Positions 36,801 through 38,093 of a stretch of 64,000 nt of DNA are shown here, piece by piece. The position numbers were made by a program, and so were the translations under genes. The notes beneath the pieces were generated by a model that was not told where the DNA came from, did not search any database, and saw only the letters and a list, made by a program, of their open reading frames with translations. Position 1 is the first letter of the stretch, and each line of letters begins with the position of its first letter. The stretch is taken from assembly GCA_963693365.1 (NCBI GenBank), contig CAVNZM010000010.1:7627794-7691793 (forward strand). Reading direction: 5' to 3'. Source of the stretch: Amoebidium appalachense. Taxonomy: Eukaryota; Protista; Ichthyosporea.

Positions 36801-38093
36801 TTGTCGATGGCTGGCCCATTTGCCCATGGAGGAAAGATAAACAGACTATTTGTTTCTAGTTTGGTGACTTTGGGAAGGCTCTGGGACCCATCAAGTCAAG
36901 AGGTCGCGGAGACCAGCAGAAACCCTCCCATCCCTTTCCCCCCATCGCTCCCCCTTCTCCCCCTTTCCCCCTGTAAACTTTGATCTGTCTCGGGGACACA
37001 AAATTTGGCATGGCGGATTGGGGACTCGAACCTCAATCCTCGCGGCTGCGAGCTGGGAGCTCTAACCGCTAGGCCAAAAGGTACGCGCGCTGATGGTTGA
37101 TCCATGATGCGACTTTTGTTCCATTCGAGTGATCAAGTACATAGCGAATACAGAGCGGATCTGTATGTAAGCGAGCACGCGAACGGCGCGAGTTTACATC
37201 CCCCCCCCCCCCCCCCCCCCCCCAAAGGGCGAAGTAGACTCGGCCTCGAGACCCGATTGGTCACAAGCCTACCAATCAGAGTCCGTGCTGCTTATGGACC
37301 GGTACTGGTGCGCGATGAGGATACGGGGACCGTCACCGGGACCCCCGTCTCTAGCAGGTAGAGACCGCACAGGCTGCCTGTGTGTGACAGGGCTTACCTC
37401 CTGCCTGCTATAGCTAGCTTCACGGATGCAGCTGGAGTGCCAGGGTCGCGTGAGCATCGTTGCAGTCATCTCATGCGCGACGGGAGCGGTCAACGGAACC
37501 TGGGCGGACCAGGGCGTTACCCGTGACATCACCCTGTGCGGCCGCAGGGTCGCGGACCTACTTGCGCAAGTGAGGACTTGGCTTTCAGTCTACCCGCGGT
37601 TGGGCGCCAATGTAAACTTTCATCCGTCTCGGGGACACAAAATTTGGCATGGCGGATTGGGGACTCGAACCTCAATCCTCGCGGCTGCGAGCTGGGAACC
37701 GCTAGGCCAAAAGGTACGCGCGCTGATGGTGGATCCATCATGCGACTTTTGTTCCATTCGAGTGATCAAGTACATAGCGAATACAGAGCGGATCTGTATG
37801 TAAGCGAGCACGCGAACGGCGCGAGTTTACCCACCCCCCCCCCCCCCCCCCCCCCCCCCAACCCCTAACCCTAAACCCCCACCCCCCCCAACCTTGACCC
37901 CACCCACCCACCCACACAACTACTAACATTGCTGGGCTAAACAGGGGAGGCCACCGAGATTGCCAAGGCAGCGCTATTTTTGGCATCAGACGAGTCTTCG
38001 TTTGTGACCGGCACCGACTTCCTGGTCGATGGGGGCATCTGTGCTGCTTACGTCACACCCCTGGGGGAGACAAAGAGCCTGCCCCCACACTAG
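30853..38093 (+). CDS. Classical short-chain dehydrogenase/reductase (FabG-like), ~267 aa, 9 exons
   Basis: Exons 30853-30899, 31734-31854, 32207-32282, 33183-33229, 33966-34029, 34902-35018, 35605-35638, 36260-36408 and 37945-38093 are in frame. Motifs: TGAGSGIG, NNAGI, INTAS, catalytic [17 protein letters not shown]. Confidence 0.93.
31509..31732. repeat. (CA)n microsatellite abutting a 3' splice site
   Basis: About 220 bp of CA repeat ends directly in CAG|T (SDR exon 2). Confidence 0.95.
36972..37198 (-). repeat. 3' LTR of TRIM (227 bp)
   Basis: TG...CA termini with an 8-bp terminal inverted repeat. It differs from 37611-37831 by about five substitutions and one 6-bp indel. Confidence 0.9.
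37006..37085 (-). pseudogene. tRNA-derived (Ala-CGC-like) Pol III module inside the LTR; second copy at ~37645-37718
   Basis: The minus strand reads TGGCCTAGCGGTTAGAGCTCCCAGCTCGCAGCCGCGAGGATTGAGGTTCGAGTCCCCAATCCGCCA. A box is 37076-37066 and B box is 37032-37022, with tRNA spacing and a CT-CGC-A anticodon loop. The stems are mispaired, so this is not a functional tRNA. TTTT follows at 37003-37000. Confidence 0.75.
37611..37831 (-). repeat. 5' LTR of TRIM
   Basis: Second copy of the LTR. It lacks GCTCTA within the tRNA-like D-arm region and its first base is G instead of T. Confidence 0.9.

What the first reader, a model, noticed from the sequence alone, without database searches (positions are those of the whole stretch)
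36972..37831. Complete miniature LTR retroelement whose LTRs carry a tRNA-derived Pol III promoter
Seen: LTR-PBS-interior-PPT-LTR on the minus strand, with an 8-bp TIR, PBS TGGCGCCCAAC and PPT G24A, and no coding capacity. Each LTR contains a co-oriented degenerate tRNA (A box TGGCCTAGCGG, B box GGTTCGAGTCC, CGC anticodon loop) followed by TTTT. Known: the PBS matches the 3' end of eukaryotic tRNA-Lys(CUU). Small-RNA-derived LTRs are described for plant Cassandra TRIMs (5S) and, as I recall, for the tRNA-bearing Ajax elements. Inference: an SINE/LTR hybrid using Pol III in this lineage would extend that rare class. Low LTR divergence implies a fairly recent insertion.
Basis: partly seen in the sequence, partly recalled or inferred. 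Interest (0 to 1): 0.76.

Follow-up and report, generated by a model that had tools for sequence, protein, structure and literature searches.

The report
Helenus-type mini-retrotransposon in an ichthyosporean
A tiny gene-less jumping element, lying in an intron of what is likely a single-celled relative of animals, carries a decayed tRNA look-alike in both end repeats that likely serves as its promoter; this kind was described in 2024 as Helenus, so it is a new example in a likely new host group, not a new class.

Summary
The element is real: minus strand, 5' LTR 37831-37611, Lys-type PBS, 412-nt non-coding interior, G24A tract, 3' LTR 37198-36972; the LTRs differ by 5 substitutions and one 6-nt indel. 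Both LTRs hold tRNA-type A and B boxes (0 of 20,000 shuffles), but no working tRNA. Public contigs show other copies with different flanks; all three anticodon letters vary, box cores do not (0 of 14, not significant). The host groups with Amoebidium and Sphaeroforma (one gene, 100/100); my searches found no Helenus reported from ichthyosporeans. The copy lies antisense in the last intron of a spliced dehydrogenase gene. Two leads: another sequence shares only 192 nt of the interior (possible helper), and one contig has an LTR lacking the tRNA part. Pol III transcription, the TSD length and the helper are not shown. The TTTT behind the tRNA part cannot be an efficient terminator if the element copies itself; a TTTT just before the A box is my preferred one. 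This scan has found Helenus-type elements before on other DNA (21 notes, at least 8 genomes). New member of a known kind.

The parts
37611..37833 (-). 5' LTR (221 nt from 37831; 223 nt if it starts at the TG at 37833 with two extra G)
   Evidence: other copies start with T (table 7)
37650..37716 (-). tRNA-like segment of the 5' LTR: A box 37709-37699, B box 37671-37661, 6-nt deletion after the A box (box spacing 38)
37709..37712 (-). TTTT directly before and into the A box, C/G-flanked (5' LTR copy)
37639..37642 (-). TTTT behind the tRNA part, A-flanked (5' LTR copy); broken in one contig each of X4, X7, X8
37599..37609 (-). [quoted passage not shown]
37199..37610 (-). non-coding interior, 412 nt, no TTTT on the sense strand
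37360..37551 (-). 192-nt part of the interior shared with a different, unidentified sequence (candidate helper leader)
   Evidence: tables 3, 4, 7, 8; tables 2, 7
37199..37223 (-). polypurine tract G24A
36972..37198 (-). 3' LTR, 227 nt, TG...CA, 8-bp terminal inverted repeat
37011..37083 (-). tRNA-like segment of the 3' LTR: TTTT 37079-37076, A box 37076-37066, B box 37032-37022 (box spacing 44); second TTTT at 37003-37000
37834..37838 (-). candidate target-site duplication, left copy (G5, inside a 26-nt G run; low information)
36967..36971 (-). candidate target-site duplication, right copy (G5)
36409..37944 (+). host: last intron (GT...AG, 1536 nt) of a short-chain dehydrogenase gene; the element lies antisense in it, about 110 nt from the acceptor
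   Evidence: spliced contigs in X2, X5, X6 whose loose end equals 36378-36407; joined frame open; PF13561 positions 155-202 and 206-235 on the two exons

Best explanation
This is a non-coding miniature LTR retrotransposon with tRNA-type A and B boxes in both LTRs (the Helenus kind), which is likely transcribed by RNA polymerase III from the 5' LTR, likely primed by host tRNA-Lys and likely copied and inserted by the proteins of an autonomous, probably Ty3/Gypsy-type, helper. Shown: the anatomy, the boxes, the PBS and tract, further copies at other sites, the loss of tRNA function, and the position in a host intron. Inferred steps: (1) TFIIIC/Pol III start 12-20 nt before the A box of the 5' LTR; (2) the polymerase passes the A-flanked TTTT in U5 often enough, crosses the TTTT-free interior and stops at the C/G-flanked TTTT just before the A box of the 3' LTR, giving about 650 nt with a 13-21-nt terminal repeat, as Kojima reports for Cassandra (18 bp) (odds about 40%; the alternative end is the second TTTT of the 3' LTR); (3) a 192-nt leader shared with another element serves as packaging signal for the helper's Gag (odds about 50% that this other element is the helper); (4) tRNA-Lys priming, strand transfer, tract priming and integration follow the standard LTR route.
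For: Anatomy and statistics. Match to the published definition (TRIM of 311-1263 bp, tRNA-derived sequence in the LTR, TRGCY/YGG and GGTTC motifs, PBS, PPT). Same 11-nt Lys PBS as wasp Helenus and Gypsy-16_NVi; the motif occurs 61 times in the Helenus supplement. Other copies: 57, 45 and 43 contigs of runs X4, X7, X8 lie on 609 bases, with 4, 3 and 3 contigs running into unlike flanks exactly at the LTR start and 5 listed tract-LTR joints of other copies. 25 LTR sites vary in the listed contigs, none of 14 box-core sites, all 3 anticodon sites, and the commonest B-box change gives the textbook letter. The LTRs have no TATA and no AATAAA, whereas the host gene has AATAAA at 38294. A different sequence shares 37360-37551 and runs on unlike for 350-383 nt on the element's 3' side, as Copia-9_PGr shares the interior but not the LTR with LTR-1_PTrit. 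Ty3/Gypsy elements are reported in other ichthyosporeans.
Against: No transcript start, strand or polymerase is shown. Sparing of the box cores is not significant (P 0.18); one X4 contig changes A-box position 15 and one X7 contig replaces 37632-37669, B box included. Rfam tRNA score is below threshold. TSD length cannot be read in a G run. The host's own tRNA-Lys was not seen. The sharing sequence could be another non-autonomous family; only 30 letters of each loose end were shown. A TTTT before the A box is not general in Helenus: in the supplement the T3 forms occur 39+5 times, the T4 forms 1+4 times. Lack of TTTT in the interior is what chance gives (6,683 of 10,000 shuffles). The element's contigs in the spliced runs carry this copy's own alleles, which host pre-mRNA explains as well as an own promoter.
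Confidence: 0.8

Rival explanations
1. An ordinary Pol II-driven TRIM whose LTR carries a passenger SINE or tRNA fragment that plays no part in transcription of the element.
For: A TTTT in U5 would cut Pol III transcripts at 83-91 nt. One contig in X4, X7 and X8 has a tract-linked LTR that lacks about 113 nt including the whole tRNA part. Box conservation is not significant.
Against: No TATA or AATAAA in the LTR; the boxes keep tRNA spacing while stems and anticodon decay; the tRNA-less form is one contig at about single-copy depth, and it also lacks about 50 nt upstream of the tRNA part, which suits a later deletion.
Confidence: 0.13
2. The Pol III boxes are active but make only a short (about 85-90 nt) tRNA-like RNA from every LTR, solo LTRs included; the genomic RNA comes from read-in by host transcripts or a separate promoter.
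For: TTTT at 37642-37639 follows the tRNA part as in a tRNA gene; LTR contigs are deeper than interior contigs; this copy lies in an expressed gene.
Against: That TTTT is A-flanked and is broken in one contig each of three runs; this copy is antisense to its host gene, so host read-in gives the wrong strand.
Confidence: 0.05
3. The tRNA-like part is a functional tRNA-Ala(CGC) gene or a self-made primer carried by the element.
For: Canonical box spacing and a CGC loop in this copy.
Against: ARAGORN gives only pseudogene calls with different isotypes in the two LTRs; all three anticodon letters vary among copies; the segment's 3' end can pair with only 5 letters of the PBS (read from the sequence).
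Confidence: 0.02

Closest known systems
Helenus (TRIMp3), Kojima 2024, PMC10886601; nearest in PBS: wasp families such as ULTR-1_NVit and Helenus-1_MeDo, coelacanth LTR1_LCh, oyster Helenus-3_CGi
   Same: Non-coding TRIM within the size range, TG...CA LTRs holding a co-oriented tRNA-derived segment with TRGCY/YGG and GGTTC, 11-nt tRNA-Lys-CTT PBS, G-rich tract, non-functional tRNA.
   Different: Host is an ichthyosporean by one gene tree; published hosts are fungi, six animal phyla and Selaginella. Interior of 412 nt is longer than those I saw in part 5 of 11 of the supplement (published maximum 621 nt). T4 rather than the commoner T3 before the A box. I saw no sequence likeness to listed families outside boxes and PBS (by eye only, 1 of 11 parts).
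[quoted passage not shown]
   Same: Small-RNA-gene promoter inside the LTR; short terminal repeat made by Pol III start and stop within the small-RNA part (as summarised by Kojima), which is my model for step 2.
   Different: 5S-type promoter (boxes A and C), Met-type PBS, plants only; Pol III use validated there, not here.
   Same: TRIM with a Pol III-type promoter fragment in the LTR.
   Different: 5S-derived, tRNA-Leu PBS, two nemerteans; no 5S match here.
LTR-1_PTrit with Copia-9_PGr (Helenus and putative helper)
   Same: Interior shared with another element while LTRs are not, as seen for 37360-37551.
   Different: There the partner is a known autonomous Copia; here the partner's coding capacity is unknown and the PBS points to Gypsy.

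Membership tests
Helenus (TRIMp3) | Short non-coding element with two LTRs (311-1263 bp) | tested here: met
   860-862 bp, LTRs 221/227 nt, longest sense ORF 86 aa without Pfam match
Helenus (TRIMp3) | tRNA-derived sequence in the LTRs with TRGCY, YGG and GGTTC | tested here: met
   Both LTRs; 0 of 20,000 shuffles; aligns to Rfam tRNA positions 7-64 but at 15.2 bits, below the gathering score
Helenus (TRIMp3) | PBS complementary to a tRNA right behind the 5' LTR | tested here: met
   11 of 11 with tRNA-Lys-CTT of bee and human as printed in Fig. S2; host's own tRNA not available
Helenus (TRIMp3) | Polypurine tract before the 3' LTR | tested here: met
   G24A here; 6-9 G plus TGA or TGGTTGA in other copies
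Helenus (TRIMp3) | 4- or 5-bp target-site duplication | tested here: inconclusive
   G5 on both sides if the LTR starts at 37833; G5 makes up 8% of sites in this intron, and 4 cannot be told from 5
Helenus (TRIMp3) | Interspersed copies with the same termini | tested here: met
   Several unlike flanks at the LTR start in X4, X7, X8; no whole genome held, so no count
Helenus (TRIMp3) | tRNA-like part is not a functional tRNA and not the primer | tested here: met
   Pseudogene-level calls with discordant isotypes; anticodon varies at 3 of 3 sites
Helenus (TRIMp3) | Transcription by RNA polymerase III (predicted, not validated, for Helenus itself) | not testable with these tools
   Only contigs were available; they show no start, end or strand
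Helenus (TRIMp3) | Dependence on an autonomous Gypsy or Copia element | tested here: inconclusive
   A sequence sharing 192 nt of interior exists but could not be retrieved; metagenome scan gave seed-only matches
Ajax / Cassandra | 5S rRNA-derived sequence in the LTR | tested here: not met
   No 5S match at E up to 10; boxes have tRNA geometry

The most novel reading that the evidence does not exclude
First Pol III-driven TRIM from a unicellular relative of animals, caught with its whole kit in one culturable organism: an expressed autonomous helper that shares only the 192-nt leader, a TTTT in front of the A box that sets a 13-21-nt terminal repeat, and a tRNA-less LTR that is the pre-capture ancestor, which would test directly how such elements arise and replicate.
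Probability: 0.12. Interest if true: 0.65.

Novelty: new member of a known kind. Interest (0 to 1): 0.36.

Why it matters
It extends Helenus-type elements, so far published for fungi, animals and one lycophyte, to a likely ichthyosporean host, between the animal (Gypsy-linked, 4-bp TSD) and fungal (Copia-linked, 5-bp TSD) groups; its PBS is of the animal type. Pol III use has not been validated for any Helenus. Amoebidium silences transposons by DNA methylation and reactivates them on 5-azacytidine, so start and stop sites could be mapped in culture. For annotation, such LTRs can pose as tRNA pseudogenes. It does not change the known classes of mobile elements.

Tried and rejected
No whole genome is held, so no copy count, solo-LTR count or TSD survey. 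No further copy in the window. A generic pattern (B box, LTR end, Lys PBS) found 0 matches in metagenome contigs and 0 in viral contigs. A 19-nt interior pattern gave 5 metagenome loci, all matching 20-23 nt only, taken as chance. No RNA holder is listed on record; this blank is no evidence. X8 has both flanks but no contig over 37309-37350, and X2, X5, X6 have no contig over the intron flanks: holes prove nothing and no contig bridged an empty site, so polymorphism and own transcription are not claimed. The idea that variation among copies is CpG decay was rejected (5 of 25 variable sites at CpG, P 0.54). TTTT-free interior as a sign of selection: rejected. Two more host-marker searches gave nothing, so host placement rests on one gene. 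Rfam matches to sn3071, PTE, frameshift element and others are far below their gathering scores; no hammerhead match, so no retrozyme. The 2008 Cassandra paper is not held. No look-alike among the scan's earlier notes by sequence, by place, or for Helenus with ichthyosporean/Amoebidium.

Full report
Observation. The minus strand shows LTR-PBS-interior-tract-LTR at the stated coordinates. The LTRs (37831-37611 and 37198-36972) differ by 5 substitutions in 221 letters and a 6-nt deletion in the 5' LTR just after the A box. The 3' LTR has TG...CA ends with a perfect 8-bp inverted repeat. The 5' LTR begins GG at 37831; reading the TG at 37833 as the true start, with two extra G in a G run, restores the end and gives G5 on both flanks. 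That TSD is of little value: G5 makes up 8% of sites in this intron and 4 bp cannot be told from 5 bp. The 11-nt PBS occurs once in 64 kb. The longest ATG frames are 86 and 125 aa; the 86-aa sense frame has no Pfam match; the antisense one was not scanned.

The tRNA-like part. An A+B box pair occurs only in the two LTRs of the window and in 0 of 20,000 shuffles; spacing is 44 nt in the 3' LTR and 38 in the 5' LTR. It is not a working tRNA: ARAGORN finds 0 genes at default and only pseudogene calls at lowered thresholds, Ala in one LTR and Gly in the other; Rfam aligns positions 7-64 of the tRNA model at 15.2 bits against a gathering score of 29 and reports no tRNA match in the 1.8-kb stretch.

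Other copies. No whole genome is held. Thirteen of 24 listed public runs, under three organism labels and four studies, hold part of the element; I laid 7 of them. On 37225-37833, runs X4, X7 and X8 gave 57, 45 and 43 contigs, X1 gave 3. Summed depth over the LTR is several times that over most of the interior (the tool warns that this is no copy number). Four, three and three contigs run into mutually unlike flanks exactly at the LTR start, each consensus beginning with the T that this copy lacks; five listed joints show tracts of other copies (6-9 G plus TGA or TGGTTGA); 28 loose ends were not shown. Across LTR sites vary: 0 of 14 box-core sites (P 0.18, so only consistent with selection), 3 of 3 anticodon sites. 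The commonest B-box change gives the usual letter. Against uniform conservation: one X4 contig alters A-box position 15 and one X7 contig replaces 37632-37669. At 37460, 37481 and 37621 all listed contigs of X4, X7 and X8 differ from this copy, so it is not a pristine family member.

Host and site. The window's acetyl-CoA synthetase is nearest to a protein labelled Amoebidium parasiticum (88% on one exon; 79% over six pieces, against 59-67% for six others) and groups with it at 100/98 and with Sphaeroforma at 100/100 in a tree of 23 rows (22 of the 119 proteins fetched plus the window). Two further marker searches found nothing, so 'ichthyosporean, Amoebidium-like' rests on one gene. Contigs of X2, X5 and X6 cover 37944-38200 at depth 139, 143 and 879 and have a loose end whose 30 letters equal 36378-36407: they are spliced across a GT...AG intron 36409-37944. 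The joined frame is open and both exons match PF13561 at adjacent positions. The element therefore lies antisense in the last intron of an expressed dehydrogenase gene and does not block splicing in those contigs. The same three runs hold a contig of LTR, PBS and interior at depth 8-13 with this copy's alleles at 37460, 37481, 37542 and 37621. This is a weak hint of transcription only: host pre-mRNA or DNA would give the same, and contigs show no strand or ends.

Two leads. First, a different sequence shares 37360-37551 (8 changes and a 10-nt gap in 112 letters; 4 changes and a 6-nt gap in 94 letters) and runs on unlike for 350-383 nt on the element's 3' side and 62-68 nt on its 5' side, at depth 55-58 in X6, 10-14 in X2 and 15-25 in X5; X7 has depth 547 in 7 contigs at 37398 against 29 for the contig identical to this copy. 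Kojima's best helper case has the same pattern, interior shared and LTRs not. Whether it encodes Gag-Pol is unknown; a scan for the shared part found only seed matches. Second, one contig each in X4, X7 and X8 (depth 6.4, 22.7, 15.5) has a tract followed by an LTR lacking about 113 nt, 37767-37655, the whole tRNA part included. Because the gap also removes about 50 nt upstream of the tRNA part and shows no duplication at its ends, I favour later deletion (about 70%) over a pre-capture ancestor.

Mechanism. Steps shown: anatomy, boxes, copies, loss of tRNA function. Steps inferred: Pol III transcription, priming, helper. A full-length RNA must pass the TTTT behind the tRNA part in the 5' LTR, or it would be only 83-91 nt. 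That run is A-flanked and is broken in one contig each of three runs. A second TTTT, C/G-flanked, lies directly before the A box; met within the first 20 nt in the 5' LTR and after about 650 nt in the 3' LTR, it would give a 13-21-nt terminal repeat, close to the 18 bp that Kojima reports for Cassandra. That flanking letters change the strength of a T4 terminator, and that Pol III starts 12-20 nt before the A box, is recalled knowledge, from no call; a search for a paper on it gave nothing useful (listing only). Against generality, published Helenus mostly have three T at this place (39+5 against 1+4 motif hits). The LTRs lack TATA and AATAAA while the host gene has AATAAA, which mildly favours Pol III. 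The PBS matches tRNA-Lys-CTT over 11 nt, as in wasp Helenus and Gypsy-16_NVi; only Gypsy elements share PBS types with animal Helenus, and Ty3/Gypsy elements are reported in three other ichthyosporeans.

Comparison with what is known. Kojima 2024 (PMC10886601; main text parts 1-5 of 6 read, passages; supplement part 5 of 11, and searches) names tRNA-bearing TRIMs Helenus and 5S-bearing nemertean ones Ajax; Helenus is defined by anatomy, probably arose several times, and has no experimental proof of Pol III use. This element meets six tested features, two are inconclusive (TSD, helper), one is untestable. Not found in print for this host: searches (listings), 0 hits for Amoebidium, Ichthyosporea, Sphaeroforma or Capsaspora in Kojima's supplement, 0 for 'protist' or 'unicellular' in its text, 0 for Helenus, tRNA, SINE or polymerase III in the main text of an Amoebidium genome paper (PMC11244446, passages only; supplements not seen). 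PMC7215508, PMC12859917 and bioRxiv 10.64898/2026.05.21.726589 (supplements closed) were seen as passages. Repbase and Dfam could not be searched, so the family may already be catalogued. The scan's own notes list 21 findings of this kind in at least 8 other genomes, among the 8 shown diatoms and early-diverging fungi (unchecked AI notes), none with this sequence or host words.

Verdict. A real, multi-copy Helenus-type TRIM in a likely new host lineage: new member of a known kind, interest 0.36. Its value lies in being testable: helper candidate, tRNA-less variant and two candidate terminators in one organism.

Noticed in passing
window 37360-37551 (contigs of X2, X5, X6, X7): A second, more abundant sequence shares only this part of the interior and continues unlike on both sides; candidate autonomous helper or sister family.
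   Followed up: partly
window 37655-37767 / 37014-37148 (one contig each in X4, X7, X8): A tract-linked LTR of about 114 nt that lacks the whole tRNA-like part; deletion or pre-capture ancestor.
   Followed up: partly
window 37304-37360: 57 nt of this copy's interior are skipped or replaced in contigs of X7 and X8, so the family has at least two interior types; one X7 contig also leaves the interior at 37584.
   Followed up: no
window 37823 and 37818-37820 (table 7): The same 5'-truncated LTR junctions appear in runs under different organism labels (37823 in X4, X7, X8; 37818-37820 in X4, X8), suggesting shared old insertions.
   Followed up: no
window 37713-37745 and 37080-37112: A short hairpin is predicted just upstream of the A box; several fish, coelacanth and oyster Helenus LTRs show, by eye, an inverted repeat at a similar place.
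   Followed up: partly
whole window: 107 runs of 15 or more G or C (2,609 nt) and many CA/CT microsatellites in introns; CpG observed/expected 0.50 in the window against 1.02 in the element.
   Followed up: no
window 1289-1418, 3452-3653, 5174-5486, 20521-20608, 21549-21727, 22564-22766: A short interspersed repeat of about 130-200 nt in both orientations, 70-94% alike; possibly MITE- or SINE-like.
   Followed up: no
window 11320-11566: Tandem duplication of about 124 nt, 98% alike.
   Followed up: no
window 46909-48192 (+): Open frame of 428 codons without a Pfam match.
   Followed up: partly
window 1463-3133 (-): Open frame of 557 codons matching FAD_binding_2 (fumarate reductase-like) with no relative at E 1e-60 in the search run.
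   Followed up: partly
window 37860-37885: Two telomere-like hexamers beside the 26-nt C run that flanks the 5' LTR; probably chance in a C-rich intron.
   Followed up: no
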